From the IMG/VR virus record IMGVR_UViG_3300042890_004094: a stretch of 64,000 nucleotides of DNA. One strand, written 5' to 3'. Shown here piece after piece: positions 2,038-28,026 of this stretch. The DNA comes from a virus. Lineage: Duplodnaviria > Heunggongvirae > Uroviricota > Caudoviricetes. The position numbers were made by a program, and so were the translations under genes. The notes under the pieces are model-generated. The model searched no databases, was not told the origin of the DNA, and saw only the letters and a list, made by a program, of their open reading frames with translations. The stretch's first letter is position 1; the number at the start of each line of letters is the position of its first letter.

Positions 2038-2122
2038 AAGAGAGTAAGGGAATCGAACCCTACCCAGTTTCCCGGGCGTCTCGCTTAGCAGGCGGACCCT
2101 ATCACCATCAAGGTTTACTCTC
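2038..2122 (-). tRNA. tRNA-Ser(GCT), type II (long variable arm)
   Basis: Reverse complement GGAGAGT...GGGTTCGATTCCC...ACTCTCT; anticodon loop CTGCTAA; variable-arm hairpin CCCGG-GAAA-CTGGG. Confidence 0.7.
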
Positions 2123-2133
2123 CATATTTTGTA

Positions 2134-2216
2134 GTGAGCAAGGGAATCGAACCCTATACATCTAAACGTACGCACTGCTTTCCAGGCAGACCCTATCACC
2201 ATCAAGGATTACTCAC
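2134..2216 (-). tRNA. tRNA-Ser(GGA), type II
   Basis: D-arm identical to previous tRNA; anticodon loop CTGGAAA; T-arm GGGTTCGATTCCC. Confidence 0.6.
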
Positions 2217-2226
2217 TATGTTGTTG

Positions 2227-2313
2227 CGGAGAAAACAGGGCTCGAACCTGCACACCAGTTTCCCGATACCGGTTTTCAAGACCGGGGCGATACCAATTAC
2301 GCTTTACTTCTCC
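2227..2313 (-). tRNA. tRNA-Ser(TGA), type II
   Basis: Reverse complement GGAGAAG...CCGGT-CTTGAAA-ACCGG...GGTTCGAGCCC...TTTCTCC. Confidence 0.7.
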
Positions 2314-2324
2314 AAGTAATTTAG

Positions 2325-2408
2325 AAGAGAGTGTGGGACTCGAACCCACAAAGGTATTACCCTTTACTAGTTTTCAAAACTAGGCCTTCATCCAGCCAGT
2401 TACTCTCC
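2325..2408 (-). tRNA. tRNA-Ser(TGA) second copy, type II
   Basis: Reverse complement GGAGAGT...CTAGT-TTTGAAA-ACTAG...GGGTTCGAGTCCCAC...ACTCTCT. Confidence 0.6.
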
Positions 2409-2417
2409 ATATATTTG

Positions 2418-2489
2418 TGATTCCAGAGGGAATCGAACCCCCACCTGATCGTTCGTAGCGACCTATCCTATCCGTTAAACGATGGAACC
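2418..2489 (-). tRNA. tRNA-Arg(ACG)
   Basis: Reverse complement GGTTCCA...GGTCG-CTACGAA-CGATC...GGGGGTTCGATTCCC...TGGAATC. Confidence 0.7.
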
Positions 2490-2496
2490 AATTAAA

Positions 2497-2536
2497 AACA
2501 AAAAACCCACAAACTTTGAAGTCTGTGGGTTTCATA
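2497..2536. terminator. Hairpin with flanking T/A runs (factor-independent terminator candidate; minus-strand reading gives stem then TTTTTTGTTTTT)
   Basis: aacccacaaac-tttgaa-gtctgtgggtt preceded on the plus strand by aaaaacaaaaaa. Confidence 0.5.
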
Positions 2537-2553
2537 CTAATTTTTTATATCAA

Positions 2554-2631
2554 TTATGAACACAACAGAACCTCCCTCAAATTACTTGAGCGACTAGACG
2601 AACTTGACGATGTTGTGATAATTGTTTTCAT
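2554..2631 (-). CDS. Micro-ORF (25 aa, MKTIITTSSSSSSRSSNLREVLLCS) directly fused to the conserved promoter-like motif; may instead be a small RNA
   Basis: ATG immediately follows TTTTAATATATAAATAAT on the minus strand; terminated by the hairpin at 2497-2536; a related copy lies at 3695-3805. Confidence 0.25.
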   Translation of the reverse strand: MKTIITTSSSSSSRSSNLREVLLCS

Positions 2632-2636
2632 ATTAT

Positions 2637-2653
2637 TTATATATTAAAATTTT
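2637..2653 (-). promoter_or_regulatory. Conserved AT-rich promoter-like motif (minus-strand reading AAAATTTTAATATATAA)
   Basis: Member of a TTTTAATATATA family that recurs upstream of at least 10 genes in this window. Confidence 0.45.
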
Positions 2654-2675
2654 ATTCTTTGTTTTTATTTATTTG

Positions 2676-2809
2676 ATAGAAAGGTGGGACTCGAACCCAC
2701 AACCACGGCTTTAACAGAGCGAAGTAACTTATTTCATTGCTACTAAGAGTTTCTTAGAGAAAGACTGACTAAGTATGATTACGTGCTCTACCAATTGAGC
2801 TACTTTCTA
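2676..2809 (-). tRNA. tRNA-like gene interrupted by a ~58-nt insertion (possible intron); anticodon region reads TCATAC (possibly CAT)
   Basis: Canonical 5' half TAGAAAG-TA-GCTC-AATTGGTA-GAGC and canonical 3' half GTGGG-TTCGAGT-CCCAC-CTTTCTA form a perfect 7-bp acceptor, but are separated by about 58 extra nt; no 3' anticodon-stem partner found at the canonical place. Confidence 0.5.
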
Positions 2810-2813
2810 TTTG

Positions 2814-2884
2814 CACGTCGACTAGGGCTCGAACCTAGAACATTGGTTTTGGAGACCAAGATGATACCATTTCACTATCGACGT
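2814..2884 (-). tRNA. tRNA-Trp(CCA)
   Basis: Reverse complement ACGTCGA...TTGGT-CTCCAAA-ACCAA...CTAGGTTCGAGCCCTAG-TCGACGT. Confidence 0.7.
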
Positions 2885-2891
2885 GTTTTGG

Positions 2892-2965
2892 GTTGACAGA
2901 CGGGACTTGAACCCGCAATCCCTTGGTTCACAACCAAGTGCTTTAACCAATTAAGCTACCATCAA
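2892..2965 (-). tRNA. tRNA-His(GTG)
   Basis: Reverse complement TTGATGG...CTTGG-TTGTGAA-CCAAG...GCGGGTTCAAGTCCCGT-CTGTCAA, discriminator C. Confidence 0.65.
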
Positions 2966-2967
2966 AG

Positions 2968-3042
2968 TGACCCCGGTGAGACTCGAACTCACAACCCCCG
3001 CATTAAAAGTGCGGTGCTCTAAACCAATTGAGCTACGAAGTC
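2968..3042 (-). tRNA. tRNA-Lys(TTT)
   Basis: Reverse complement GACTTCG-TAGCTCAATTGG...CCGCA-CTTTTAA-TGCGG...GTGAGTTCGAGTCTCAC-CGGGGTC. Confidence 0.7.
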
Positions 3043-3052
3043 ATTATTATTG

Positions 3053-3124
3053 TGCGGACTGACGGAATCGAACCGACCTCTTAGGGACTTCACTCCTACG
3101 CTAAACCGTCTCAGCTAAATCCGC
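3053..3124 (-). tRNA. tRNA, anticodon uncertain (loop GTGAAGT, possibly GAA/Phe-like; imperfect stems)
   Basis: Reverse complement GCGGATT...GGTTCGATTCC...AGTCCGC has a perfect acceptor and T-loop; the anticodon stem has a mismatch. Confidence 0.5.
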
Positions 3125-3130
3125 AATTTT

Positions 3131-3205
3131 GGGTGAAAGACGGGGATCGAACCCGCGACAACTTGAACCACAATCAAGCACTCTACCACTGAGCTACAAT
3201 CACCA
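3131..3205 (-). tRNA. tRNA-His(GTG)-like second copy (G-1 and C73 present, two T-T mismatches in acceptor stem; possibly degenerate)
   Basis: Reverse complement G-GTGATTG-TAGCTCAGTGGTAGAG...CTTGA-TTGTGGT-TCAAG...GCGGGTTCGATCCCCGT-CTTTCAC-C. Confidence 0.5.
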
Positions 3206-3211
3206 TGTTTG

Positions 3212-3284
3212 TGGACCCTCAGGGAATCGAGCCCTGTCCTTTGGATTTTCAGTCCAACGTACGCACCAGCTATACGAAAGGTCC
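3212..3284 (-). tRNA. tRNA-Phe(GAA)
   Basis: Reverse complement GGACCTT...TTGGA-CTGAAAA-TCCAA...CAGGGCTCGATTCCCTG-AGGGTCC. Confidence 0.65.
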
Positions 3285-3294
3285 ATTATATTTG

Positions 3295-3367
3295 CACAAG
3301 CCAAGGGAGTCGAACCCTTTCCATCCGAGGTTTTGGAGACCTGGTGCATACCATTATGCTGACCTGT
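3295..3367 (-). tRNA. tRNA-Trp(CCA)-like second copy (one mismatched pair in anticodon stem)
   Basis: Reverse complement ACAGGTC...CAGGT-CTCCAAA-ACCTC...AAGGGTTCGACTCCCTT-GGCTTGT; D-loop AATGGTAT shared with the other Trp gene. Confidence 0.5.
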
Positions 3368-3376
3368 ATATATTTG

Positions 3377-3469
3377 AAGAAAGAAGAGTATCGAAACTCT
3401 TAGGGGATATCTCCACGACTAGCCTACCTCTCGGATTCGAACCGAGACCTCTTCAACCTGACTTTCTTT
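3377..3469 (-). tRNA. Aberrant 93-nt tRNA-like element (candidate Ser-CGA type II tRNA with unusually long variable region, or a tRNA remnant)
   Basis: Perfect 7-bp acceptor AAGAAAG/CTTTCTT; internal CTCGG-TTCGAAT-CCGAG stem-loop and a second T-arm-like AAGAG-TTTCGATA-CTCTT; does not fold canonically. Confidence 0.35.
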
Positions 3470-3471
3470 TG

Positions 3472-3544
3472 TGATCCCGGTGGGGCTCGAACCCACAACC
3501 TTCTGATTAAAAGTCAGAAGCTCCACCAATTGAGCTACGAAATC
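3472..3544 (-). tRNA. tRNA-Lys(TTT) second copy
   Basis: Reverse complement GATTTCG-TAGCTCAATTGGTGGAGC...TCTGA-CTTTTAA-TCAGA...GTGGGTTCGAGCCCCAC-CGGGATC. Confidence 0.65.
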
Positions 3545-3549
3545 ATTAG

Positions 3550-3622
3550 TTCCCCCGCCGGGAGTCGAACCCGGCCCCATAGGTTAAAAGCCTATTGCCT
3601 ACTACCAGTTTGCTACGAGGGA
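3550..3622 (-). tRNA. tRNA-Lys(TTT) third copy
   Basis: Reverse complement TCCCTCG...ATAGG-CTTTTAA-CCTAT...GGCCGGGTTCGACTCCCGGC-GGGGGA. Confidence 0.6.
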
Positions 3623-3631
3623 TTATAAAAT

Positions 3632-3670
3632 AAAAAAACCCGAACTTTTTTATAAGTTCGGGTTTACGTT
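3632..3670. terminator. Strong hairpin with flanking A/T runs (bidirectional factor-independent terminator candidate upstream of the tRNA array)
   Basis: aaaaaaacccgaacttttttataagttcgggtttacgttt. Confidence 0.6.
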
Positions 3671-3694: not shown

Positions 3695-3805
3695 TTATCC
3701 TATAATAACATCTTCTTTTGAGAACGACATACTCATACATCCGAACTTGTGGCTAAACCACTTGAACGACTTACTAAAGCTTGTATGTTTGAAATTTGTT
3801 CTCAT
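3695..3805 (-). CDS. Micro-ORF (36 aa, MRTNFKHTSFSKSFKWFSHKFGCMSMSFSKEDVIIG), a related copy of 2554..2631; may be a small RNA
   Basis: ATG fused to TTTTAATATATATAACA on the minus strand, followed by the 3632-3670 terminator. Confidence 0.25.
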   Translation of the reverse strand: MRTNFKHTSFSKSFKWFSHKFGCMSMSFSKEDVIIG

Positions 3806-7752: not shown

Positions 7753-7798
7753 AATTGTATTTTGTGTTTTTTATATATAAAATAAAAAATCTTTAAAA

Positions 7799-8002
7799 AT
7801 GCCGGCTCAATCGAAACAGCAACTAAAGTATATTTATGCAATGCGTAATAAATATAAAAACAAGAAAAGTGCTCCTAAACATATGAAGTGGGTATTTAAC
7901 AAAGATTGGACCCAAGACGTTAAAGCCAGTGGGTTACCAACCAAAGTTAAAAGTTTTCAAACTTATGTAAGTGAAAACTATGATGCTTCGACTAAGAAGT
8001 AA
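7799..8002 (+). CDS. Hypothetical small basic protein (67 aa)
   Basis: Lys-rich ORF; 3' end overlaps the convergent tyrS by 25 nt. Confidence 0.4.
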   Translation: MPAQSKQQLKYIYAMRNKYKNKKSAPKHMKWVFNKDWTQDVKASGLPTKVKSFQTYVSENYDASTKK

Positions 8003-9234
8003 CTTTTCTTACCTCTTTGTAGTATGATAAACTTATCATTTATCAAATCAACATCTGTTACGATGTAATCCTCTTCTCTTTTTATTTTATTTATTGCAAC
8101 TGAATTTTCTTTTAAAGCTCTTCTAGCTTCATTATTTGATTTTAAGAAACCTGTTTTAAATAGAATGTCTGTCATTGTAATGCCTACAAGAATTTCTTCC
8201 ATAGGAACTTTCGCTTGTGGTATTCCATTAAATACATCTAAGAATAATTCTTCATCAAGTAAGTTTAAATCTCCACCATTAAATAAAATGTTAGAAGCTT
8301 CTAGTGCTTTTTCAAACTCTTGCTGACCGTGAACCATAATAGTTATTTCTCTTGCTAATTTTTTTTGTAACAAAAATAAGTTCTTTGCTTTATTATGTTC
8401 TTCTATTAAATTATCAATAGTTTCTTTATCTAAAAATGTAAAGATTTTAATGTATTTCTCTGCATCATTATCATCGGTATTTATCCAAAATTGGTAAAAC
8501 TTGTACACAGAGGTCTTATCTTTATCTAACCATATATTTGTACCTCCTTCAGATTTTCCGAACTTAGAACCATCCGATTTAGTTAGTAAAGGACATGTCA
8601 TAGCAAATGCTTCCCTACCAGGATTCATTTTGTGAATTAGTTCAGTTCCTGTTGTAATGTTACCCCATTGATCTGAACCACCCATTTGTAATAAGCAGTT
8701 ATGTTCTTTATTTAGATGGTAGAAATCGTATCCTTGAATCAACTGGTACGTAAATTCTGTGAAAGACATTCCTTCACCTTCAATACGATTTTTCACAGAT
8801 TGTTTAGATAACATGTAATTTACAGTAATTCTTTTACCAATGTCTCTTACAAAGTCTATGAAACTAAATTTTGACATCCAATCGTAGTTATTTACTACAG
8901 GAGTATCACCTAAAAATCTTGTTAGTGTATTTCTAATACCTTCGACATTTTTATTAAGTGTTTCTTCGTCTAATAGATTTCTTTCATTTGACTTACCAGA
9001 GGGGTCACCGATCATACCAGTGGCACCTCCAACAAGTGCGATAGGATTGTGTCCAAAATTCTTCATATGTTTTAAAAGAATGATTGGAACTAAACTACCG
9101 ATATGTAGAGAATCTGACGTTGGATCAAAACCGATATAAGAGGTGGTGGCTTCTTTTAAAAGTTGAGCCTCCGTTCCTGGTATTATATCGTGTACCAACC
9201 CACGCCATTTTAATTCTTCTACTATATTTTTCAT
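7978..9234 (-). CDS. tyrS: Tyrosyl-tRNA synthetase, bacterial type
   Basis: GFDPTSDSLHIGSLVP (HIGH-region), GGATGMIGDP, GGSDQWGNIT and KFGKSEGG (KMSKS-like) motifs; C-terminal S4-like region. Confidence 0.9.
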   Translation of the reverse strand: MKNIVEELKWRGLVHDIIPGTEAQLLKEATTSYIGFDPTSDSLHIGSLVPIILLKHMKNFGHNPIALVGGATGMIGDPSGKSNERNLLDEETLNKNVEGIRNTLTRFLGDTPVVNNYDWMSKFSFIDFVRDIGKRITVNYMLSKQSVKNRIEGEGMSFTEFTYQLIQGYDFYHLNKEHNCLLQMGGSDQWGNITTGTELIHKMNPGREAFAMTCPLLTKSDGSKFGKSEGGTNIWLDKDKTSVYKFYQFWINTDDNDAEKYIKIFTFLDKETIDNLIEEHNKAKNLFLLQKKLAREITIMVHGQQEFEKALEASNILFNGGDLNLLDEELFLDVFNGIPQAKVPMEEILVGITMTDILFKTGFLKSNNEARRALKENSVAINKIKREEDYIVTDVDLINDKFIILQRGKKSYFLVEAS

Positions 9235-9638
9235 TATGCCAATACTTCTTTAATAACTTCTGATACAACTTTTCTGTCTACTTGTAAAGTAGCAAACTCT
9301 TTCATAATTCCACCAACATTGGTAATCCCTGATGCAACAAGTGCACTAACTTTTACAACAACATCTTCTCTTGTCATAGCAGCTGGAAGTAAAGCTTCAA
9401 CCATTTCTAATTGAGTTTTAGATTCTTCGTCACCAGAAGTTGCGATAACTTCTTTAAGAGATTTTGCAGTTTTATTAAGAATTTTAATTACCTCTGCATC
9501 AGAAAGACAATCTACTCCTGTATTTTTTTCAATAGTTTGGATCTCTCCTTTCACTACAGAAAGTAAGTTCTTTGCTACGACATTTCTTTCTTTGAAAGCA
9601 GTCATGTAGTCTTTGCTAATTTGTTCTTTTAAATTCAT
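9234..9638 (-). CDS. YqeY/GatB-domain protein
   Basis: 134 aa, MNLKEQISKDYMTAFKERN... resembles the YqeY family; stop overlaps the tyrS start as TAATG. Confidence 0.65.
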   Translation of the reverse strand: MNLKEQISKDYMTAFKERNVVAKNLLSVVKGEIQTIEKNTGVDCLSDAEVIKILNKTAKSLKEVIATSGDEESKTQLEMVEALLPAAMTREDVVVKVSALVASGITNVGGIMKEFATLQVDRKVVSEVIKEVLA

Positions 9639-9875
9639 AATATTTATTTTTAATAATTTCTAAAAAAAATACCTTTTTCATCTATTTTCTATATTTAATA
9701 TCAAGGTAGTTCACTGTTTTTCATAAAAGGTATTAGAAAATTCATTTACCAGCTACTTACTACCATAAACACTAACTATAACTATGTGACCAAAACTTAT
9801 TCTATAACAGGTCAGTTGTAGTAGCTCATTATTTATTGTGCAAATATACAATAAAGTTTCAATTTAAAAAATATA

Positions 9876-9894
9876 TTTTAATATATAGTTTATG
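9876..9894 (+). promoter_or_regulatory. Conserved promoter-like motif TTTTAATATATAGTTTATG fused to the start codon
   Basis: The 13-mer TATATAGTTTATG, including the ATG, is identical at 9882-9894, 28096-28108, 46307-46319 and, on the minus strand, at 11908-11920. Confidence 0.5.
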
Positions 9895-11565
9895 AAATAC
9901 TTAAAATTATACGAAGGTTTTGAATCTGATAGGATTAGTGCAATACTTTCATTTCTAAATAAAAAGATAAAGAGTGATTATCCAGCAAGAGAGTTTTTAA
10001 AAGTATTAAAAATACTTGCTGATAAATTTGATTTCCCACTAAGTACATTGAGTGATAAAGAAATACAATACCTATCAGTAAATAAAGCTTTAGCTGTTGG
10101 TAAAGGTGAAGAAGCAATGAACCCATCTGGTATTTATTGTATTAAGTATTGGTTTTCATTAGAAAAAGGTTATTTATGTAGTACTGGAACTGGAAATAAA
10201 ACTATGGACTATAATAAGTATAATTCTTATAGTGGTGTTATGATGAGTAATGGTGAAGGTTTAGATCAATCTCATTTAGCTTACTTGACTAGAGAATATA
10301 ATATAAGTGGTGTTATTACTCCGACTAGATTAGGAGATTTAAGAACTGGTGATAAAGTAGTAATGGTTTGTGGTGATGATTTCAATGGAGATCCTGCTTA
10401 TTTAACTTTTGGTGAAATATATGCCGATAATAGAAGAAATGATGATGAAATTCAATATTATTTTTATCAAAATGATCATGAAGGTTCAGATCCTGGTTCA
10501 ACTAGAAATAATATTACATTACCAGATAGATATAATCTTTATGCGGGTAATGCAGCATATCAATATGCTTGGTCATTGGGAAGTTCAGACGATCCATCAG
10601 ATGATCATTGTATGATACATAAAGTAATAATTGATGAAAACCCATTAAGATTTAAAGATGAAGATTTAGATAAAATAAATAAAACAGAAGAATCTGTTTG
10701 GGATTTCAATTTACCATTAGATGGAACTACTTTGGAAGAATGGAATAACAGAAAAACAGGAACTTTTAATAAAGTAAATAAAGAAGCAAACTTTGCAATC
10801 GTTCTTTTTCTCGATGATATAATAATTAAAAATGTTGATGATACTACATCTGATATTATAAAAAGAAGAAAATCTGGTAGAAAAGACGCATTAGCTTTAA
10901 AGAAACCAGAGGATATTAGAAAAGAAAATGTTGAAAGGTATTTAACTACTTTATTTAAAAAATTAGGAATTGAACAAGATAAACAAGAATTTAAAAATCT
11001 TAACTCAGTTGTTTTATCATCAATTATAGGAGATTATTTTATCATTGCACTTTATAATAGTAGTGCTTATATAGATAGATTATCAGACTTTATTACTTAT
11101 TTGTATAGACTTATGTCAGATAGTGAAGATTCATATAATTTTGAAAAAACATATGAATTGTTTAAGACTATTAAGAAAAGACGTTTAAAACAAACTACTG
11201 CTTACTCTAATGGTATTAAAGTTATTAAAGATAGTGATAATCAAAATACAGAAAGAATGTCTAATGTAATTGACAGAATAACTAATATAGGTCAAATTTT
11301 ATCAAATTCAATTAAAAATAGAAATATAGAAACTATTGAAGATCTTAAATCAATACAAGTTAGATTAGCATCATTATATGAATTAGTACAAGATGATATT
11401 TTTATACTTTCTAGAAATACTAAAAATGTTCTTATAAACTTAGATGGTGATACTTCTACATTAAAAGTAATTATGAGTAGATTCAGATATAGTGAAGAAG
11501 AGTATAATAGTGATATTAAAAGATTAGATAAACTTGAAAAGGTATTTAAAGATCTTTTAAGATAA
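9892..11565 (+). CDS. Hypothetical protein (557 aa), N-terminus MKYLKLYEGF
   Basis: Long ORF; shares the MKYLK-x-YE-x-F N-terminal motif with several other ORFs. Confidence 0.6.
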   Translation: MKYLKLYEGFESDRISAILSFLNKKIKSDYPAREFLKVLKILADKFDFPLSTLSDKEIQYLSVNKALAVGKGEEAMNPSGIYCIKYWFSLEKGYLCSTGTGNKTMDYNKYNSYSGVMMSNGEGLDQSHLAYLTREYNISGVITPTRLGDLRTGDKVVMVCGDDFNGDPAYLTFGEIYADNRRNDDEIQYYFYQNDHEGSDPGSTRNNITLPDRYNLYAGNAAYQYAWSLGSSDDPSDDHCMIHKVIIDENPLRFKDEDLDKINKTEESVWDFNLPLDGTTLEEWNNRKTGTFNKVNKEANFAIVLFLDDIIIKNVDDTTSDIIKRRKSGRKDALALKKPEDIRKENVERYLTTLFKKLGIEQDKQEFKNLNSVVLSSIIGDYFIIALYNSSAYIDRLSDFITYLYRLMSDSEDSYNFEKTYELFKTIKKRRLKQTTAYSNGIKVIKDSDNQNTERMSNVIDRITNIGQILSNSIKNRNIETIEDLKSIQVRLASLYELVQDDIFILSRNTKNVLINLDGDTSTLKVIMSRFRYSEEEYNSDIKRLDKLEKVFKDLLR

Positions 11566-11910
11566 TAGATATAAATCATGTTGTCTCGCTTCTAACTCTG
11601 TTAAAAGATGAACACACTCTCTTCTTAGATCCTTTAACTTTAAAAAGTCTTCCGTATTATTAGTTTTATTTAATCGTGAATTAAGATTATCAATTTCAAC
11701 CGTTATTAAATCTTTCATTAAACTCATTTCCTTACTAACCTCTTCTTTTAAATCAAGTGCTAATGATTTAAAATACGGATTCGCCATGATAACACTTTTA
11801 TAATTATTAGAACTAAAGTTCTTCATAAGTCTTTTGAGTGTATCAATAGCTTGTTCCTCAGTAGTTGATAGATGTAGCTTATCGAGATATTCTAACAAGG
11901 TCAATTTCAT
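11557..11910 (-). CDS. Hypothetical protein (117 aa)
   Basis: ORF preceded by the conserved motif. Confidence 0.5.
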   Translation of the reverse strand: MKLTLLEYLDKLHLSTTEEQAIDTLKRLMKNFSSNNYKSVIMANPYFKSLALDLKEEVSKEMSLMKDLITVEIDNLNSRLNKTNNTEDFLKLKDLRRECVHLLTELEARQHDLYLLS

Positions 11911-11921
11911 AAACTATATAT
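11908..11921 (-). promoter_or_regulatory. Conserved motif (minus-strand ATATATAGTTTATG) fused to the start codon; contains the TAG stop of smpB
   Basis: Reverse complement of cataaactatatat. Confidence 0.45.
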
Positions 11922-12345
11922 TTCGTTGCATCTCTCTAGTAAGGTCTCTTTCTTTGATAGTTTCACGTTTATCCCAAGTTTTCTTACCTTTGGCAACAGC
12001 TATTTTAATTTTAATTCTATTATTCTTAATAAACATACCAAGTGGAATTGCAGTTATGCCTTTATCTTCCAGTTTTCTTTTGATACGAGTGATTTCTTTT
12101 TTATTTAAAAGAAGTTTCTTATCACGATTTTCTTCGTGTTTATCTAAAGTATGTGCTGATTTATAAGCTGCAACTTTTAGATTTTTAATCCACACTTCAT
12201 TATCTTTTATGTAAATGAACGCATCAACCATGGTAACATTTCCCATTCTAACGGACTTTACTTCACTACCAACCAATATTATTCCGCAGTCAAATTCCTC
12301 TATAAAAGTATATTCGTAACGGGCTCTTCTATTTAATGCTATCAT
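11914..12345 (-). CDS. smpB: SsrA-binding protein SmpB
   Basis: 143 aa; ALNRRARYEY...GSEVKS...IAVAKGKK..DKR..IKERD pattern aligns with bacterial SmpB. Confidence 0.85.
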   Translation of the reverse strand: MIALNRRARYEYTFIEEFDCGIILVGSEVKSVRMGNVTMVDAFIYIKDNEVWIKNLKVAAYKSAHTLDKHEENRDKKLLLNKKEITRIKRKLEDKGITAIPLGMFIKNNRIKIKIAVAKGKKTWDKRETIKERDLTREMQRNI

Positions 12346-12895
12346 ATTTTATAATTTTATCGGAATCTCCTTTCCTGTTCTTAATGACTTGTATTACTTT
12401 ATCATTACTTTGTTGAGTTATAATCATTGCTAAATCTGCATAATATAAAGGTGTTGAACCACCCATAAAAGAATCATTATCTTTATTTAAACCATTGGTG
12501 TTTAATGGACAGGTAAGTATCAACTTAATGTCACATATATCTTTCCCATTTCTACTATCTCTTAGACAAGATCTTACATCATAGATAACATTTTTTATTA
12601 CACTTGCTCTACTTAAATCCTCGTTAGTAAAATTTCTTTGTTCAATATAAGTATTTCTTATATCATTTATATCTAATAGTAAGTATTCAAACTCTTCTTT
12701 CTCATTTAGAACTTGGTCAATTTTCATATCTCTGATAATTGACTTCATAGAAAAAGATGAACTTAAATCTATTGTCTTGGTTCTCCCAAGATTAGAAATA
12801 ATTTCATCTTTAATTCTTTCATCTGAAAATCGATAACCAATTAAGGTTGTCTCATTTTTACTAATTAGATTATATAAATAATCTATATTTTCCAT
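12329..12895 (-). CDS. Hypothetical protein (188 aa)
   Basis: ORF; overlaps smpB start by 17 nt. Confidence 0.5.
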   Translation of the reverse strand: MENIDYLYNLISKNETTLIGYRFSDERIKDEIISNLGRTKTIDLSSSFSMKSIIRDMKIDQVLNEKEEFEYLLLDINDIRNTYIEQRNFTNEDLSRASVIKNVIYDVRSCLRDSRNGKDICDIKLILTCPLNTNGLNKDNDSFMGGSTPLYYADLAMIITQQSNDKVIQVIKNRKGDSDKIIKYDSIK

Positions 12896-13215
12896 TAGTT
12901 TAAGTATTGCCCAACAAGTTCAGACAATTTTTCTTTAGTTGTCATACCAACACTTCTATCTACAATTTCTCCGTCTTTATAAACCAAGATTGTAGGAATG
13001 TTTCTGATTCCCAACTCTACAACCTTATCTCCATTCGGAGTTGCGTCTAATTTACCAACTGCTACTCTTCCTTGAAAATCAATTGAAAATTCATCTAAAA
13101 TAGGAGCAATTTGTTTGCAGGGGCCGCACCAATTTGCCCAAATGTCAACTAAAACAACTCCAGTTTGTGTAAATTCAGTATAATTAGTTTCTGATAATTC
13201 TGTTATAAATCCCAT
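12895..13215 (-). CDS. trxA: Thioredoxin
   Basis: 106 aa with WCGPCK active site. Confidence 0.85.
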   Translation of the reverse strand: MGFITELSETNYTEFTQTGVVLVDIWANWCGPCKQIAPILDEFSIDFQGRVAVGKLDATPNGDKVVELGIRNIPTILVYKDGEIVDRSVGMTTKEKLSELVGQYLN

Positions 13216-13260
13216 AATTTTATATTTAGTTTTTATTTATATTATATTTTATTGAAAAGT

Positions 13261-14520
13261 TTAATCCGTACAATCTACATAACATGCATCACTATCATCA
13301 TATTCTACCTTAGATAGTATACTTTCGACCATAGAATTATGTCTTTCATCAACTATTTCTTTTCTTACAGAAAGTTCATAAAGAAGTGCAGTTGAATCAT
13401 CAATCTCTTGATTTGGTTCAATCGTATGTTTTTCCAATACTGAAAAAGCAATTGTAGGATCTTCCTTATATCTTTCTAATAGTGATTTAACTATTGAAAC
13501 TTGTTCAGTTAGTTTATAACCTCTTAGATTAAGAATTGTCCTTGGTAAAAACTTTATAGTATTTGATAATAATTTCATATCTTCTACATCAACTCCACCA
13601 TCAACATAATCTTCATTTATGAATAATGGTCTCAGTTGATTCCATATGTTCACTAATTCTGGCTTAGTATAGATATTTCTTACATAAAATAGAAAATCTT
13701 CACCTTTGTGAATACTTAATAAATTATTATCATATGTACCTGACCAAGTTTTCTCACTTTTTGTTTTTAAAGTCCATAGATTTACGTCTTTGTCATATGT
13801 TGTTTTGACGTGTGTCATACAGTCAGTATCTTGTTCTATTGTAAAATAGTCGCTAAGTAATTTATAATTATTGAATAAATTAAAATATCTATCTTGAAAT
13901 CTAACTTTGTAAACATCCTGAAGCTGACGTACTAAAACTCCTTGAATAATCTCTAATTCAAATAAATCCAACTTAACATCTAGTTCTTCAGCTTTCTTTA
14001 CAATTCTAATTGCTGTATGACAAGGTGTTTTCAAATTACTTATTTTTAAGTCTCCAGTTTTTAAGAACTTCTCAAACTCCGGTGTCCAATAAAATTTATC
14101 TTCTTCAATTGAATAACCAACCGCAGTACAGTTTATATCAAATGATTTTATGATAATCTCTGGATTGTGAGTGTTTGACTTGTAACTAACGTAGTTGAAT
14201 ATACCTTCGGTAGTAGATTCACTAATGGAATAATAGTTTTTTGCTCTATCAATAAATCTTAAACCAGAGTAATCATCATACCAAACATTTTCTTCATCTT
14301 CTTTAAATGAAAAAAAGTATTCCTTTTTATCTTCGTTATAACTATCTAGTAGACCATCAAATAAAAAAACATCAATATCATTTATGATTGCTTTTGTACC
14401 TGAAACTTCTTCCCAAATAAGGTTTGAAATAGAACCACCCGCGATAAACCCTTTTTTAGGTAAACCCCAATTTGATTTTATTTTCTCAATCGCATTCTTT
14501 GCCAACTGTTCTACGTTCAT
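13261..14520 (-). CDS. Protein with polymerase-beta-superfamily nucleotidyltransferase motif (function unknown)
   Basis: 419 aa; GFIAGGSISNLIWEEVSGTKAIINDIDVFLF matches the GS-x(n)-DxD nucleotidyltransferase signature. Confidence 0.5.
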   Translation of the reverse strand: MNVEQLAKNAIEKIKSNWGLPKKGFIAGGSISNLIWEEVSGTKAIINDIDVFLFDGLLDSYNEDKKEYFFSFKEDEENVWYDDYSGLRFIDRAKNYYSISESTTEGIFNYVSYKSNTHNPEIIIKSFDINCTAVGYSIEEDKFYWTPEFEKFLKTGDLKISNLKTPCHTAIRIVKKAEELDVKLDLFELEIIQGVLVRQLQDVYKVRFQDRYFNLFNNYKLLSDYFTIEQDTDCMTHVKTTYDKDVNLWTLKTKSEKTWSGTYDNNLLSIHKGEDFLFYVRNIYTKPELVNIWNQLRPLFINEDYVDGGVDVEDMKLLSNTIKFLPRTILNLRGYKLTEQVSIVKSLLERYKEDPTIAFSVLEKHTIEPNQEIDDSTALLYELSVRKEIVDERHNSMVESILSKVEYDDSDACYVDCTD

Positions 14521-14678
14521 TACTTTTCTTTTTTAGTGTTTAAATTTAAAACTTCTGATATGTGATCATTTAATGATCTTCTAACAGAAGAATCAGAAGA
14601 AGTCTGACTTTCATCTTTAACTTCTTCTGATTCTTCTGTTGTTTTTATTTCTTTGTCTTTCATTTCTTTGTATTTCAT
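14520..14678 (-). CDS. Small acidic Ser-rich protein (52 aa) translationally coupled between the sigma factor and the nucleotidyltransferase-like gene; not in the ORF track (below size cutoff)
   Basis: MKYKEMKDKEIKTTEESEEVKDESQTSSDSSVRRSLNDHISEVLNLNTKKEK; TAATG overlaps at both ends. Confidence 0.4.
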   Translation of the reverse strand: MKYKEMKDKEIKTTEESEEVKDESQTSSDSSVRRSLNDHISEVLNLNTKKEK

Positions 14679-15280
14679 TAGTCTAAAAACATTTCATCTA
14701 TCTGTTCAAACTCTTTTTTGGATTGATCCATAAGTATTTGACGTCCATTCCTTATTTGACTTTTAATTGTACTCAAGTTTTTTCCTAATTTATCTGCGAT
14801 GTCTTTGTATTGCATTCTTTCTATCTCTCTCATTATAATAACTGTTTTATACGGCTCTTTTAACTCGTCGATATGTTTCTTCATTACATCAGCTTTCTGT
14901 GTAAAAACATCATAAATGGCCTCATTACTTTCAGTTTCTTGTAAGAAATCTTTTAAGGTAGTACCTTCATCATCAAACTCAATGTCTAACGATATGTTTC
15001 TGTTTTCAAGTTTCTTGTCTTGAAGTGATAAATTTTTTGCAATTGTGAATAACCACGTTGAGAATTGTGATTTTTCTTTTTGATACATTTCTATTTTTTC
15101 CAGAGCTATCATAAATGAGTCTGTCGAAATGTCTTCTGCTTTTTGTACATCATTACAAATTCTTGATGTAAAGTAGATTAGTTTTGGATAATACTTTTGA
15201 TAAAGTGTTGCGAAGTCTTTACCTGTTCTTTCTTTAAAGATTTTCTCTTGTTCAGAGAAGGGAGCTGTGCTTAATTCCAT
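14678..15280 (-). CDS. Sigma-70 family RNA polymerase sigma factor (regions 2 and 4 only, ECF-like size)
   Basis: 200 aa; region 2 ...FSTWLFTIAKNL..., region 4 HTH ...YKDIADKLGKNLSTIKSQIRNGRQIL. Confidence 0.8.
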   Translation of the reverse strand: MELSTAPFSEQEKIFKERTGKDFATLYQKYYPKLIYFTSRICNDVQKAEDISTDSFMIALEKIEMYQKEKSQFSTWLFTIAKNLSLQDKKLENRNISLDIEFDDEGTTLKDFLQETESNEAIYDVFTQKADVMKKHIDELKEPYKTVIIMREIERMQYKDIADKLGKNLSTIKSQIRNGRQILMDQSKKEFEQIDEMFLD

Positions 15281-15324
15281 AGATTGCTTTTGATTTTTCT
15301 TTTTGACATGCCGTCAATTGCTTT

Positions 15325-15350
15325 TGATTGATTGATTTTGATTGATTTTG
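15325..15350. repeat. Short direct repeats TTGATTGATTGATTTTGATTGATTTTG in the sigma-factor upstream region
   Basis: Visible tandem TTGATT(T) units; possible operator. Confidence 0.4.
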
Positions 15351-15388
15351 TTCTTAATTTATTCTAATTGCCGTAATAATATTATATG

Positions 15389-15406
15389 ATATATATATTA
15401 AAAGTT
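15389..15406 (-). promoter_or_regulatory. Conserved promoter-like motif (minus-strand AACTTTTAATATATATAT) about 110 nt upstream of the sigma-factor start
   Basis: Same motif family. Confidence 0.4.
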
Positions 15407-26937: not shown

Positions 26938-28026
26938 ATGACAAACGAAATTTTAAACCCAGAAGTAGGAAACCCAGATTTTGAACTTTTATTTGAAGAA
27001 AAAAGTTACAGAAAGGGTAAGAATATGAGTGATAAAGACTTAGATGCTCTTTATAACTCTATTAAATTAGAAATACCACAAGTAGGTAATGTGGTTAGAT
27101 CTAGTTACCGAGGTATTATGGCTAATCAGTTTGTATTCAGTGTTGACGGATTCAAAGATGATGTCAGAGTTGAAGACAAACCAAATGAGGCCAAGTACCT
27201 TAAAAATTGCAACACTGGAGATGAGGTTGATGTTTTAATTACCGAGATAAATCAAGGTCAATATTTCATCAAAGGAAGCATTGCTTCACTATATGAGTCA
27301 AGAGCTCACGAAAACCTTAAATCTTTAGAGGAAGGAGAATCAGTAACTGCTTATGTAAGATCACTTAACCCAGCAGGTTACGATGTTGAAATCACAAATG
27401 GAGGAGTAACTCTTCCTGGATTTATGCCAAATACCTTAGCAGGTATCAACAAACTTTACGACCCAACTTCAATCGTTGGTGATACATTCCAAGTAATGAT
27501 CGAGTCTTTCTCAGAACATGAAGGAACTTATATCGTAAGTCGTAGAAAGTATCTACAAACATTGATTCCACAAGAAATTGGTAATCTTGAGTTTAACACC
27601 TTATATGGTGGTAGAGTAACTGGAACAACACCATTCGGTATCTTTGTTGAGTTCAACGAGTGCTTAACTGGTATGATTCACAAAGCTAATGTTACAGAAG
27701 AATGGCAAAACAGAATCTCCGAAATTAAACCAGGACAAGAGATTGAGTTCTATATTAAAGAAATCATTAAAGAGAAGATAATTCTTACTCAAGTCTTGAG
27801 AGAAACACTTTGGGATAACATCAAAAACGGTCAAGTTATTGATGGTCGAGTGAAAGATGTAAAACAATTTGGAACTTTAGTAATCTTAGATGATGAAACA
27901 GTTGGACTAATACACACTTCAGAAATGGAGAAATTAGGCAAAAAGTTTGTATCTGGGCAAGACATCAAAGTAAAAGTTCTTTCTGTAGATCGTCAAAGTC
28001 GCAAGATTTTCTTAACGATTGGATAA
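26938..28026 (+). CDS. Multi-S1-domain RNA-binding protein (ribosomal protein S1-like)
   Basis: 362 aa with several S1-like units, e.g. GRVTGTTPFGIFVEFNECLTGMIHKANV and DGRVKDVKQFGTLVILDDETVGLIHTSEM...GQDIKVKVLSVDRQSRKIFLT. Confidence 0.65.
   Translation: MTNEILNPEVGNPDFELLFEEKSYRKGKNMSDKDLDALYNSIKLEIPQVGNVVRSSYRGIMANQFVFSVDGFKDDVRVEDKPNEAKYLKNCNTGDEVDVLITEINQGQYFIKGSIASLYESRAHENLKSLEEGESVTAYVRSLNPAGYDVEITNGGVTLPGFMPNTLAGINKLYDPTSIVGDTFQVMIESFSEHEGTYIVSRRKYLQTLIPQEIGNLEFNTLYGGRVTGTTPFGIFVEFNECLTGMIHKANVTEEWQNRISEIKPGQEIEFYIKEIIKEKIILTQVLRETLWDNIKNGQVIDGRVKDVKQFGTLVILDDETVGLIHTSEMEKLGKKFVSGQDIKVKVLSVDRQSRKIFLTIG

What the first reader, a model, noticed from the sequence alone, without database searches (positions are those of the whole stretch)
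7978..15280. Virus-borne translation-related gene set: TyrRS, YqeY, SmpB without a visible tmRNA, S1-like protein, plus thioredoxin and sigma factor
A full-length bacterial-type TyrRS, a YqeY/GatB-domain protein and a clear SmpB homologue lie within 5 kb of the tRNA array. A multi-S1-domain protein sits at 26938. SmpB only acts with tmRNA, yet no tmRNA-like T-arm plus tag-reading-frame structure is seen in this window. An aaRS, ribosome-rescue factor and S1 protein in a viral context is uncommon and suggests deliberate remodelling of host translation.
Basis: partly seen in the sequence, partly recalled or inferred. Interest (0 to 1): 0.7.

Follow-up and report, generated by a model that had tools for sequence, protein, structure and literature searches.

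The report
Huge-phage translation genes, orphan SmpB
This stretch of a giant bacteriophage of Flavobacterium-like bacteria carries intact copies of bacterial translation genes (TyrRS, YqeY, SmpB, an S1-like protein), a known habit of such phages. Two things are less ordinary: SmpB has no partner tmRNA even in complete relatives, and the nearby tRNA genes sit behind short leader peptides that look like sensors of tRNA supply.

Summary
TyrRS, YqeY, SmpB, thioredoxin, an ECF sigma factor and a four-domain S1-like protein are all present, full length and under strong purifying selection. ARAGORN and Rfam find no tmRNA in the window.

The window is a fragment of a Mahaphage-clade huge phage. The identical SmpB lies on contigs of 415-433 kb. 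The region is colinear with the complete 635 kb and 642 kb phage genomes LR745206 and LR756502. Translation-gene sets of this kind were published for this clade (Al-Shayeb 2020), so the gene set itself is a new member of a known kind.

Three points are new:
- Both complete relatives keep SmpB but have no detectable tmRNA. SmpB is therefore an orphan that most likely works with host tmRNA.
- TyrRS is a recent capture from Flavobacteriaceae (66-71% identity). It occupies a slot next to YqeY that holds a non-discriminating AspRS in LR745206.
- Every tRNA sub-cluster, two in the window and eight in each complete relative, lies 4-10 nt behind a terminator. Each terminator is preceded by a short ORF whose codons match the downstream anticodons (best of 40,320 permutations, in two genomes) and which contains an antiterminator segment. 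This looks like trp/his-type attenuation applied to tRNA genes. I found no prior description.

The parts
7978..9234 (-). Bacterial-type tyrosyl-tRNA synthetase, 418 aa
   Evidence: TIGR00234 386 bits. PDB 6n0w E=6e-161, with the HIGS and KFGKS motifs aligned. 66-71% identical to Flavobacterium and Tenacibaculum TyrRS. dN/dS 0.07-0.13. Absent from LR745206 and LR756502.
9234..9638 (-). YqeY (GatB C-terminal-like) protein, 134 aa. Its stop overlaps the TyrRS start.
   Evidence: PF09424 40.8 bits. 62% and 60% identical orthologues in LR745206 and LR756502. In LR745206 it is followed by a non-discriminating AspRS instead of TyrRS.
9662..9829 (-). Conserved structured 5' leader of the YqeY-TyrRS operon. 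It comprises a mini-ORF MSYYN (9812-9829), a conserved core (9744-9768), and a long-range helix (9725-9734 with 9668-9677) followed by a U8 run (9662-9669).
   Evidence: The core is shared with LR745206 and with IMG/VR locus L103. The helices covary. No Rfam family matches at E<=10.
9892..11565 (+). Conserved ORF of unknown function, 557 aa, opposite strand
   Evidence: 28% identical syntenic orthologue in LR745206. No Pfam or PHROG hit.
11557..11910 (-). orf117, last gene of the SmpB operon, function unknown
   Evidence: 38-40% identical syntenic orthologues. dN/dS 0.08-0.23.
11914..12345 (-). SmpB, 143 aa, full length including the C-terminal tail
   Evidence: PF01668 174 bits and NF003843 178 bits. 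Residues 2-142 align to A. aeolicus SmpB 9-149. The phage clade of 118 sequences keeps 43 invariant columns. dN/dS 0.03-0.06.
12329..12895 (-). orf188, a RecA/Rad51/KaiC-like fold without a Walker A motif. It overlaps both the thioredoxin and the SmpB genes.
   Evidence: AlphaFold model with pLDDT 80.6. Foldseek against the PDB gives RecA and RAD51, E about 1e-6. Found only in this phage clade.
12895..13215 (-). Thioredoxin, 106 aa, with a CGPC motif
   Evidence: PF00085 85.9 bits and TIGR01068 97.1 bits.
13261..14520 (-). Nucleotidyltransferase-like protein, 419 aa, with a precomputed Pfam Gad2 hit
   Evidence: PF26128 Gad2 in the precomputed table. Only a weak NTP_transf_6 match in the local Pfam copy. 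44-45% identical orthologues.
14678..15280 (-). ECF-type sigma factor, first gene of the sigma-to-orf117 block
   Evidence: Sigma70_r2 and r4_2 domains. TIGR02937 above its cut-off; best match TIGR02985, the Bacteroidetes type. 75% and 66% identical orthologues.
15381..15405 (-). Promoter-like motif ACTTTTAATATATA, about 100 nt upstream of the sigma gene
   Evidence: The same motif precedes both tRNA leaders and occurs only at these three minus-strand sites.
26938..28026 (+). S1-like protein with four S1 domains, 362 aa
   Evidence: PF00575 78.9 bits. Colinear with E. coli bS1 residues 18-341. Below every rpsA equivalog cut-off. 66% and 62% identical orthologues.
2039..3622 (-). tRNA array: Lys x3, Trp x2, Phe x2, His x2, Arg(ACG), Ser(UGA) x2, Ser(GGA), Ser(GCU)
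   Evidence: ARAGORN finds 13. Rfam adds one at 2039-2122; its anticodon loop was read.
3695..3805 (-). Leader ORF A: MRTNFKHTSFSKSFKWFSHKFGCMSMSFSKEDVIIG. It is rich in Phe, Lys, His and Trp codons, and its antiterminator segment lies at 3738-3751.
   Evidence: Sequence. Duplex with the terminator 5' arm -11.9 kcal/mol, z=-3.0. Homologues in LR745206, LR756502, L102 and L106.
3627..3665 (-). Intrinsic terminator A. It ends 4 nt before the first tRNA-Lys.
   Evidence: Hairpin of -16.6 kcal/mol followed by a U run.
2554..2631 (-). Leader ORF B: MKTIITTSSSSSSRSSNLREVLLCS. Codons 8-16 are all read by the downstream Arg and Ser tRNAs. Its antiterminator segment lies at 2563-2575.
   Evidence: Sequence; structure. 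Weak Rfam His_leader hit at 2497-2613. Homologues found.
2494..2533 (-). Intrinsic terminator B. It ends 4 nt before tRNA-Arg(ACG).
   Evidence: Hairpin of -19.1 kcal/mol followed by a U run.

Best explanation
The window is part of the genome of a huge phage (at least 433 kb; relatives are 612-649 kb) of the Mahaphage clade that infects Flavobacteriaceae.

The flagged genes form two conserved minus-strand units.
- One block runs sigma factor, Gad2-like nucleotidyltransferase, thioredoxin, RecA-like orf188, SmpB, orf117. The genes overlap or abut and the scan of 7400-16200 found no canonical terminator between them.
- The other is a YqeY-aaRS pair behind a structured leader.

All of them look like working proteins that the phage brings to keep host ribosomes productive during a long infection. 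Shown: identity, integrity, synteny and purifying selection. Inferred, step by step:
- The phage SmpB has no phage tmRNA. It binds the host's tmRNA and so maintains or raises ribosome-rescue capacity when host gene expression is shut down and truncated mRNAs and hungry codons accumulate.
- TyrRS, recently captured from the host lineage, charges tRNA-Tyr. YqeY acts as a generic tRNA-binding helper for whichever aaRS occupies the adjacent slot.
- The four-domain S1-like protein acts on mRNA recruitment in a host that lacks Shine-Dalgarno-led initiation.
- The same module includes demand sensors, namely the leader-peptide attenuators in front of the tRNA sub-clusters.
For: Viral identity:
- The identical SmpB lies on 433,174 bp and 415,443 bp contigs. 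94-99% identical copies lie on 612-649 kb contigs.
- Fourteen window proteins are colinear with LR745206 at 315.7-336.5 kb, and the same set is found in LR756502. Both are curated phage genomes of more than 634 kb, predicted to infect Bacteroidetes (PMC7162821).

Host:
- TyrRS is 66-71% identical to Flavobacterium and Tenacibaculum enzymes.
- The neighbouring 1093-aa protein carries a CHU_C (type IX secretion) domain.
- The sigma factor is the Bacteroidetes type.

Integrity:
- Family scores are above the curated cut-offs.
- SmpB keeps its tail and motifs.
- TyrRS keeps HIGS and KFGKS.
- dN/dS is 0.03-0.23.

Orphan SmpB:
- No tmRNA in the window.
- None in the whole of LR745206 by ARAGORN or Rfam.
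- None in the whole of LR756502 by ARAGORN.
- All three phages keep SmpB.

aaRS slot: LR745206 has a non-discriminating AspRS after YqeY. Neither complete relative has a TyrRS.

Shared promoter-like motif: it sits upstream of the sigma gene and of both tRNA leaders.
Against: - Nothing shows that the phage SmpB binds host tmRNA, and no host sequence was compared.
- Only 64 kb of at least 433 kb of this phage was seen, so a tmRNA could lie elsewhere.
- A divergent or split tmRNA could escape both ARAGORN and the Rfam models. LR756502 was checked with ARAGORN only.
- The window has no virion or terminase hallmark, so viral identity rests on synteny.
- The S1-like protein fails every rpsA equivalog cut-off, so it may not be ribosome-bound.
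- Operon structure is inferred from spacing, not from transcripts.
Confidence: 0.6

Rival explanations
1. The phage encodes its own tmRNA outside this window, and SmpB works with that, as a complete phage-borne rescue pair.
For: Only about 15% of the genome is in the window. Al-Shayeb et al. report both tmRNAs and SmpB among huge phages.
Against: Two complete relatives that keep the same SmpB operon have no tmRNA. This rests on ARAGORN and, for LR745206, also on Rfam gathering thresholds across all 635 kb.
Confidence: 0.15
2. SmpB does not rescue ribosomes here. It acts as a decoy that sequesters host tmRNA so that phage proteins are not tagged, or it has a tmRNA-independent role such as changing RNase R stability.
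For: There is no partner RNA. SmpB-tmRNA is known to control RNase R (stated in PMC11662646). SmpB sits in an operon with a Gad2-like anti-defence candidate.
Against: The ribosome-acting C-terminal tail (GKK, an aromatic residue, DKR, a basic helix) and the N-terminal motifs are kept across 118 clade members. dN/dS is 0.03-0.06. A mere binder would not need the tail.
Confidence: 0.15
3. The contig is a bacterial chromosome or megaplasmid fragment, and the genes are ordinary cellular copies.
For: The window has no capsid or terminase gene. TyrRS is very host-like.
Against: There are no rRNA or ribosomal-protein operons. The window is 29% G+C and rich in giant ORFans. It is colinear with curated phage genomes and has relatives in IMG/VR. 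SmpB is only about 40% identical to the cellular SmpBs that surfaced in the searches.
Confidence: 0.03

Closest known systems
Translation-gene repertoires of huge phages (Mahaphage clade, Lak phages; Al-Shayeb et al. 2020, PMC7162821)
   Same: The clade is the same by synteny. The kinds of gene are the same: tRNA arrays, aaRS, S1-domain proteins, a sigma factor and SmpB. The predicted host phylum, Bacteroidetes, is also the same.
   Different: This lineage carries a TyrRS that the two complete relatives lack. The paper lists tmRNA and SmpB together, whereas here SmpB occurs without tmRNA. The paper's main text makes no mention of regulatory leaders in front of the tRNA genes.
Bacterial SmpB-tmRNA trans-translation
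   Same: The SmpB fold family, length, tail motif and conserved surface motifs all match.
   Different: The element carries no ssrA gene, so the partner would have to come from the host.
Giant-virus aminoacyl-tRNA synthetases, e.g. Mimivirus TyrRS (from my own knowledge)
   Same: A virus encodes a functional-looking TyrRS alongside other translation factors.
   Different: The enzyme here is a bacterial type, recently captured from the host family. It has the bacterial C-terminal S4-like domain.
Leader-peptide transcription attenuators of the trp, his, leu, thr and pheST operons (textbook knowledge)
   Same: A short ORF enriched in the regulatory codons, an intrinsic terminator, and an ORF-embedded segment complementary to the terminator's 5' arm. 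There is also a weak Rfam His_leader hit.
   Different: The controlled genes are tRNA genes that read those very codons, not biosynthetic or aaRS genes. One leader reports on up to seven amino acids at once. The elements are carried by a phage.
Deinococcus GlnRS with a fused YqeY domain, and the GatB tail domain (from my own knowledge)
   Same: A YqeY/GatB-tail domain associated with an aaRS, presumably helping tRNA binding.
   Different: Here YqeY is a separate protein, translationally coupled to an exchangeable aaRS: TyrRS in the window, non-discriminating AspRS in LR745206.

Membership tests
SmpB (PF01668 / TIGR00086) | Full-length match above the curated cut-off | tested here: met
   174 bits (Pfam) and 178 bits (NCBIfam) against cut-offs of 27 and 130.
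SmpB (PF01668 / TIGR00086) | C-terminal tail with GKK, then an aromatic residue, then DKR, then a basic helix | tested here: met
   The tail reads AKGKKTWDKRETIKERDLTREMQRNI and aligns to the tails of the A. aeolicus, M. tuberculosis and E. coli proteins.
SmpB (PF01668 / TIGR00086) | A tmRNA (ssrA) gene in the same genome | tested here: not met
   None in the window. None in complete LR745206 or LR756502. The rest of this phage's own genome could not be read.
SmpB (PF01668 / TIGR00086) | Binds the tmRNA tRNA-like domain and enters stalled ribosomes | not testable with these tools
   Needs biochemistry or genetics.
Bacterial tyrosyl-tRNA synthetase (TIGR00234) | Equivalog score above the cut-off, with the class I catalytic motifs | tested here: met
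   386 bits against 114. HIGS and KFGKS align with the Bacteroidota enzyme 6n0w.
Bacterial tyrosyl-tRNA synthetase (TIGR00234) | C-terminal S4-like tRNA-binding domain | tested here: met
   PF22421 54 bits, residues 333-415.
Bacterial tyrosyl-tRNA synthetase (TIGR00234) | Cognate tRNA-Tyr available from the same genome | tested here: inconclusive
   None among the window's 14 tRNAs. Relatives carry two tRNA-Tyr(GUA) in a Glu/Tyr cluster 20-30 kb further on. Host tRNA-Tyr would also serve.
Ribosomal protein bS1 (TIGR00717 and related equivalogs) | Score above the equivalog cut-off | tested here: not met
   100 bits against 577, and likewise for all rpsA models.
Ribosomal protein bS1 (TIGR00717 and related equivalogs) | Tandem S1 domains colinear with domains 1-4 of bS1 | tested here: met
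   Residues 50-359 align to E. coli S1 residues 18-341. Domains 5-6 are absent.
YqeY (PF09424) | Full-length match above the gathering score | tested here: met
   40.8 bits against 27, profile positions 1-143.
Mahaphage-clade huge phage | Gene order shared with curated members | tested here: met
   Colinear orthologues at 28-75% identity in LR745206 and LR756502. The SmpB tblastn ranking is LR745206, then LR756502, then Lak phages.
Mahaphage-clade huge phage | Terminase and capsid phylogeny, which is what defines the clade | not tested
   No such gene lies in the window.
Leader-peptide transcription attenuator | Short ORF enriched in codons that report on the regulated product | tested here: met
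   The true leader-to-cluster assignment is the single best of 40,320 permutations, at both the amino-acid and the codon-anticodon level, in LR745206 and in LR756502. The window leaders follow the same pattern.
Leader-peptide transcription attenuator | Intrinsic terminator between the leader and the regulated genes, with no room for a separate promoter | tested here: met
   Hairpins of -10 to -21 kcal/mol followed by U runs. In the window they end 4 nt before the first tRNA.
Leader-peptide transcription attenuator | Alternative antiterminator pairing that depends on ribosome position | tested here: met
   The best duplex with the terminator 5' arm always falls at about codons 14-29 of the ORF. 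Mean z is -2.6 and 12 of 18 cases have p<=0.05. The helices differ between homologues but stay complementary.
Leader-peptide transcription attenuator | Regulated genes are amino-acid biosynthesis or aaRS genes | tested here: not met
   The downstream genes are tRNA genes. This makes it a variant, not a member, of the classical set.
Leader-peptide transcription attenuator | Read-through rises when the cognate charged tRNA is scarce | not testable with these tools
   Needs reporter assays or Term-seq.
T-box riboswitch (upstream of TyrRS) | Match to the RF00230 model | tested here: not met
   No hit at E<=10 in 9600-9900 or at E<=5 in the whole window.

The most novel reading that the evidence does not exclude
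This phage lineage does not merely carry translation genes. It runs a demand-sensing supply circuit.

Each tRNA sub-cluster can be transcribed only by reading through a terminator. The fate of that terminator is set by a ribosome translating a leader peptide made of the very codons those tRNAs read. Shortage of particular charged tRNAs, whether from host shut-off, starvation or anticodon-nuclease defence, would therefore switch on exactly the matching phage tRNAs.

A conserved pseudoknotted leader, with an MSYYN mini-ORF in this lineage, may do the same for YqeY-TyrRS. The orphan SmpB, using host tmRNA, would clear the ribosomes that stall meanwhile.

The probability given is for the tRNA attenuators being real regulators. 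The links to SmpB and TyrRS are much less certain, about 0.2.
Probability: 0.7. Interest if true: 0.8.

Novelty: new member of a known kind. Interest (0 to 1): 0.45.

Why it matters
The gene set itself adds one more lineage to a published pattern.

Two findings sharpen that pattern. A whole sub-clade of the largest known phages keeps SmpB under strong selection yet has no detectable tmRNA. This makes 'phage SmpB works on host tmRNA' a concrete and testable claim about how phages manage ribosome rescue. The aaRS next to YqeY is an exchangeable cassette refreshed from the host.

The by-product matters more. If the leader peptides are attenuators, they are the first case I could find of tRNA genes regulated by translation of their own cognate codons. 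That would explain how phages with 45-60 tRNAs avoid making them constitutively. It would also give a direct handle on the open question of why phages carry tRNAs at all: codon-usage compensation, or a reply to tRNA depletion and cleavage. The leaders are short, modular sensors that could be tested in reporter constructs.

Tried and rejected
- **tmRNA hidden in the tRNA-array spacers.** The 323-nt gap at 2490-2812 holds leader B, terminator B and a tRNA-like element with an insert of about 40 nt. The only tmRNA signal is 13 bits on that element's T arm. ARAGORN with introns allowed adds nothing.
- **T-box upstream of TyrRS.** No Rfam hit at E<=10.
- **orf188 or orf117 as rescue cofactors.** orf188 has a RecA/Rad51-like fold without a Walker A motif. 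orf117, orf557 and the others have no Pfam or PHROG hit.
- **Virion hallmarks in the window.** None found.
- **Near-identical DNA in GenBank phages.** None.
- **Per-genome tmRNA tables in the Al-Shayeb supplements.** The text search returned nothing.
- **Leaders in Lak phage.** A 50 kb stretch around its SmpB has dispersed tRNAs and no convincing leader, so the system may be limited to the environmental sub-clade.
- **YqeY or SmpB next to TyrRS in Flavobacteriia.** Absent in all 80 loci, so TyrRS was not captured together with YqeY.
- **Sigma-70 consensus promoter scan.** Uninformative in this 29% G+C sequence.
- **Prior art.** Six literature searches for leader-peptide control of tRNA genes found nothing.

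Full report
**Observation.**
- TyrRS, 7978-9234(-), 418 aa: TIGR00234 386 bits against a cut-off of 114. It has the class I catalytic domain plus the C-terminal S4-like domain.
- YqeY, 9234-9638(-): PF09424 40.8 bits against 27.
- SmpB, 11914-12345(-), 143 aa: PF01668 174 bits; NF003843 178 bits against 130.
- Thioredoxin, 12895-13215(-).
- ECF sigma factor, 14678-15280(-): best match is the Bacteroidetes-type TIGR02985.
- S1-domain protein, 26938-28026(+).

ARAGORN finds 13 tRNAs at 2131-3622(-) and no tmRNA. Rfam at gathering thresholds adds a fourteenth tRNA at 2039-2122 and no tmRNA. Rfam at E<=5 gives only a 13-bit match to the last 17 positions of the tmRNA model, at 2684-2700. That match is the T arm of a tRNA-like element. 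The window has no tRNA-Tyr. Only TyrRS is within 5 kb of the array; SmpB is 8.3 kb away.

**What the contig is.** No GenBank phage has near-identical DNA. By tblastn the SmpB is closest to LR745206 (635 kb, 64%), LR756502 (642 kb, 55%) and the Lak megaphages (about 50%). These are the Mahaphage clade of Al-Shayeb et al. 2020, whose genomes above 634 kb were predicted to infect Bacteroidetes (PMC7162821).

The identical SmpB lies on metagenome contigs of 433,174 and 415,443 bp with the same neighbours. Copies 94-99% identical lie on contigs of 612-649 kb. Fourteen window proteins, from S1 to YqeY, have colinear orthologues at LR745206 315.7-336.5 kb: sigma 75%, orf1068 74%, ligase 69%, S1 66%, SmpB 64%, YqeY 62%. 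The same set is in LR756502. Two close relatives are in IMG/VR.

The window has no capsid, portal or terminase hit. Its other genes are an NAD-dependent ligase, an SbcC-like protein, Sir2, DnaJ, peptidases, a glycosyltransferase fusion and giant ORFans. It is 29% G+C. Viral identity therefore rests on synteny with curated phage genomes. I consider that sufficient.

**Host and origin.** TyrRS is 66-71% identical over its full length to Flavobacterium, Tenacibaculum and other Flavobacteriaceae enzymes. The best solved structure is 6n0w (E=6e-161), with the catalytic HIGS and KFGKS motifs aligned. Neither complete relative has any TyrRS. In LR745206 the gene after YqeY is a non-discriminating AspRS (NF003483 474 bits). 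TyrRS is thus a recent, lineage-specific capture from the host family into an aaRS slot next to YqeY.

YqeY is not next to TyrRS in any of 80 Flavobacteriia loci, so the pairing was made in the phage. A CHU_C (type IX secretion) domain in the neighbouring 1093-aa protein and the Bacteroidetes-type sigma factor point to the same host. From established knowledge, the YqeY fold is the tRNA-binding tail of GatB and is fused to GlnRS in Deinococcus. A trans-acting tRNA-binding helper for the adjacent aaRS is therefore a reasonable inference.

**Integrity.** SmpB residues 2-142 align to A. aeolicus SmpB 9-149 of 156, tail included. Across 118 clade members (67-100% identity, 143-147 aa) 43 columns are invariant. 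These include NRxAxYEY, GSEVKS, RKLLL and the tail GKK-x-W-DKR-xx-IK-x-RD. The aromatic W occupies the position of E. coli H136 (the E. coli sequence is from memory). dN/dS against two relatives is 0.03-0.06 for SmpB, 0.07-0.13 for TyrRS, 0.06-0.14 for sigma, 0.12-0.16 for thioredoxin and 0.18-0.23 for YqeY.

The S1-like protein aligns colinearly to E. coli bS1 residues 18-341, which is domains 1-4. It fails all rpsA equivalog cut-offs. I call it an S1-like four-domain protein, not bS1.

**Anatomy.** Sigma, a 419-aa nucleotidyltransferase-like protein, thioredoxin, orf188, SmpB and orf117 run head to tail on the minus strand from 15280 to 11557. The nucleotidyltransferase-like protein has a precomputed Pfam Gad2 hit. 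Start and stop codons overlap at thioredoxin/orf188 and at orf188/SmpB. The scan of 7400-16200 listed three weak terminator-like hairpins, within the expectation from shuffles, and none of them lies between genes. orf188 models confidently (pLDDT 80.6) as a RecA/Rad51/KaiC-like core without a Walker A motif and is confined to this phage clade.

The motif ACTTTTAATATATA occurs three times on the minus strand: about 100 nt upstream of sigma and directly upstream of both tRNA leaders. This suggests a shared promoter class. YqeY-TyrRS is a second unit, with the YqeY stop overlapping the TyrRS start. It is separated from the first by a conserved 557-aa ORF on the other strand.

**The SmpB puzzle.** I fetched all of LR745206. 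ARAGORN finds 59 tRNAs, including two tRNA-Tyr(GUA), and no tmRNA. Rfam at gathering thresholds over all 13 pieces finds tRNAs, a GOLLD RNA and a DUF805b motif, and no tmRNA of any of the five families. I also fetched all of LR756502. ARAGORN finds 46 tRNAs and no tmRNA.

Both genomes keep the SmpB operon. SmpB is therefore an orphan at genome level in this sub-clade, and it is under strong constraint on exactly the parts that act on tmRNA and the ribosome. The most economical mechanism, which is an inference, is that it loads host tmRNA. This would keep or raise rescue capacity while host expression is shut off and truncated mRNAs and hungry codons accumulate. A decoy role or an RNase R-related role is possible (for the RNase R link) but does not explain conservation of the tail. 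A tmRNA elsewhere in this phage's own genome cannot be excluded, since about 85% of it was not seen.

**By-product: leader peptides in front of the tRNA genes.** Reading the array showed two short ORFs, each followed by a strong hairpin plus U run that ends 4 nt before the first tRNA of a sub-cluster.
- Leader A (3695-3805) is MRTNFKHTSFSKSFKWFSHKFGCMSMSFSKEDVIIG. It precedes Lys, Lys, Trp, Phe, His, Phe, Lys, His, Trp.
- Leader B (2554-2631) is MKTIITTSSSSSSRSSNLREVLLCS. It precedes Arg(ACG), Ser(UGA) x2, Ser(GGA) and Ser(GCU). Its codons 8-16 (TCG TCA AGT TCG TCT AGT CGC TCA AGT) are all read by exactly those anticodons.

The pattern is genome-wide in LR745206:

| Leader peptide | Downstream tRNAs |
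|---|---|
| MNTITNIASYESYYEEG... | Glu/Tyr |
| MKNLNNISIAVIGNGAGAI... | Ile/Gly |
| MTTMNLNMTMNLTLNVVNITL... | Asn/Leu/Thr/Val/Ile/Met/Arg |
| ...APVNPQPQDQDP... | Pro/Asp |
| MTTTQQIQQQQINQTD | Gln x3 |
| MKTKLKYKR | Lys x4 |

It recurs in LR756502 and in independent IMG/VR contigs. One of these reads ...IEAIGYAYEAG... and precedes Tyr, Glu, Ile, Gly, Ala.

With eight leaders and eight clusters per genome, the true assignment gives 79 of 196 cognate residues in LR745206 (null mean 27.9) and 65 of 196 in LR756502 (null mean 24.0). At both the amino-acid and the codon-anticodon level it is the single best of all 40,320 permutations in each genome.

In 18 leaders the best duplex between the ORF and the terminator's 5' arm always falls in the 3' part of the ORF, at about codons 14-29 and downstream of the regulatory codons. 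Mean z is -2.6 against shuffles and 12 of 18 cases have p<=0.05. The helix sequences differ between homologous leaders yet stay complementary. For the A-type leaders the pairs are AAGUUCGG/CCGAACUU, GAACUUGG/CCAAGUUC and GUUCGG/CCGAAC.

This is the architecture of trp/his/pheST attenuation. A ribosome stalled early on hungry codons leaves the antiterminator free and the tRNAs are transcribed. A ribosome that runs on covers the antiterminator, and the terminator forms. Because the tRNAs start 4-10 nt after the U run, they can only be made by read-through. Rfam gives a weak His_leader hit on leader B (32.5 bits, E=0.22). Six full-text searches found no description of leader-peptide control of tRNA genes, in phages or otherwise. 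The function is inferred; no expression data were available.

**By-product: the YqeY-TyrRS leader.** The 250 nt upstream of YqeY contain four features: a mini-ORF MSYYN (9812-9829), a conserved core TTATGGTAGTAAGTAGCTGGTAAAT, a long-range helix that in this lineage is followed by U8, and a loop segment AAAAACAGTGAACTACCTTG. The core and loop recur upstream of YqeY in LR745206 and in IMG/VR locus L103.

The helix covaries: ATACC/GGTAT, ATACAC/GTGTAT, ACATC/GATGT and GCATTC/GAATGC. The core-to-loop pairing changes GGTAGT/ACTACC to GGTGGT/ACCACC. It is not a T-box or any other Rfam family. The mini-ORF can pair with the core, so Tyr-sensing attenuation is conceivable. However, the mini-ORF is not conserved outside this lineage, and I treat this as unexplained.

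**Comparison and verdict.** As a gene set this is a new member of a known kind: the huge-phage translation repertoire of PMC7162821. What this analysis adds to that paper's account is the following.
- The genome-level absence of tmRNA beside a constrained SmpB.
- The exchangeable aaRS slot next to YqeY, with a host-derived TyrRS.
- The regulatory layer described above.

The attenuators would be a new variant of a known mechanism and deserve their own follow-up. I would rate them at about 0.8 interest. The overall score of 0.45 reflects an ordinary core finding (about 0.3) raised by these additions.

**Limits.**
- The host was inferred, not shown.
- Only 64 kb of this phage was read.
- LR756502 was scanned for tmRNA with ARAGORN only.
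- Homologous leaders in different genomes are not independent, which is why the permutation tests were done within genomes.
- All RNA structures are predictions.

Noticed in passing
window 2494-2650 and 3627-3823 (minus strand); also LR745206 and LR756502 genome-wide, and L105-L107: Each tRNA sub-cluster is preceded by a promoter-like motif, a short leader ORF whose codons match the downstream tRNA anticodons, an ORF-embedded antiterminator segment, and an intrinsic terminator that ends 4-10 nt before the first tRNA. This looks like trp/his-type attenuation controlling tRNA genes. The true leader-to-cluster assignment is the best of 40,320 permutations in two genomes. No prior description was found.
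   Followed up: yes
window 9662-9829 (minus strand); LR745206 about 335.5-335.8 kb; L103 about 390-690: A conserved structured RNA lies upstream of the YqeY-aaRS operon. It has a covarying long-range helix and a pseudoknot-type core-to-loop pairing. In the window lineage it ends in a U8 terminator and is preceded by a mini-ORF MSYYN with two Tyr codons. No Rfam family matches, T-box included.
   Followed up: partly
LR745206 336,580-337,944 (L001 23614-24978): The aaRS slot after YqeY holds a non-discriminating AspRS in LR745206 and TyrRS in the window phage. Neither complete relative has a TyrRS. YqeY is a GatB-tail-like domain, so its pairing with a non-discriminating AspRS may be the ancestral, functionally meaningful state.
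   Followed up: partly
window 2039-2123 (minus strand): A class II tRNA found by Rfam only (35 bits; 40 bits against the tRNA-Sec model) and missed by ARAGORN. Its anticodon loop CUGCUAA reads Ser(GCU). This completes the set of Ser isoacceptors needed for the AGT codons of leader B.
   Followed up: partly
window 2690-2806 and 3368-3470 (minus strand): Two tRNA-like elements that no tool calls as tRNAs. One has acceptor, D and T arms but an insert of about 40 nt where the anticodon arm should be. The other has a T arm placed early in a 100-nt spacer and an anticodon-like hairpin with CGA, so it may be a rearranged or degenerate tRNA-Ser(CGA). LR745206 has similar degenerate copies in its spacers.
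   Followed up: partly
window 13261-14520 (minus strand): The 419-aa protein between sigma and thioredoxin has a precomputed Pfam hit to Gad2, an anti-Gabija nucleotidyltransferase family. The local Pfam copy gives only a weak NTP_transf_6 match. It is a possible anti-defence gene in the same operon as SmpB.
   Followed up: no
window 12329-12895 (minus strand): orf188, translationally coupled to thioredoxin and SmpB, has a RecA/Rad51/KaiC-like fold with no Walker A motif. It is found only in this phage clade, and its role is unknown.
   Followed up: yes
L016 28875-29280 (LR745206 420,875-421,280); L008 17639-17673: A GOLLD RNA (287 bits) lies among the last tRNA genes of LR745206. A DUF805b RNA motif (38 bits) lies elsewhere in that genome.
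   Followed up: no
window 15381-15405, 3806-3823 and 2631-2650 (minus strand): The shared motif ACTTTTAATATATA lies upstream of the sigma-to-SmpB block and of both tRNA leaders. In the leaders it sits only 5-10 nt before the ATG, which implies near-leaderless transcripts. It may be a phage promoter class.
   Followed up: partly
L003 15400-17900, L004, L005, L101 and L102, compared with window 2039-3622: Phages with identical or nearly identical SmpB differ widely in the content of this tRNA array: 5 to 14 genes, with an HNH endonuclease ORF inserted in L003. Leader B stays identical throughout. The array turns over fast.
   Followed up: no
window 4141-7422 (minus strand): A 1093-aa protein with a signal peptide-like start, repeats and a C-terminal CHU_C (type IX secretion) domain lies between TyrRS and the tRNA array. 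It is a clue to a Bacteroidota host and a possible surface-modifying gene. It is absent at this position in L003 and L004.
   Followed up: no
window 37553-38272, 52084-52791, 31050-32945 and 35344-36453: The same window also encodes a Sir2-family protein, a DnaJ-like chaperone, an SPFH/band-7 protein and an M16 peptidase.
   Followed up: no
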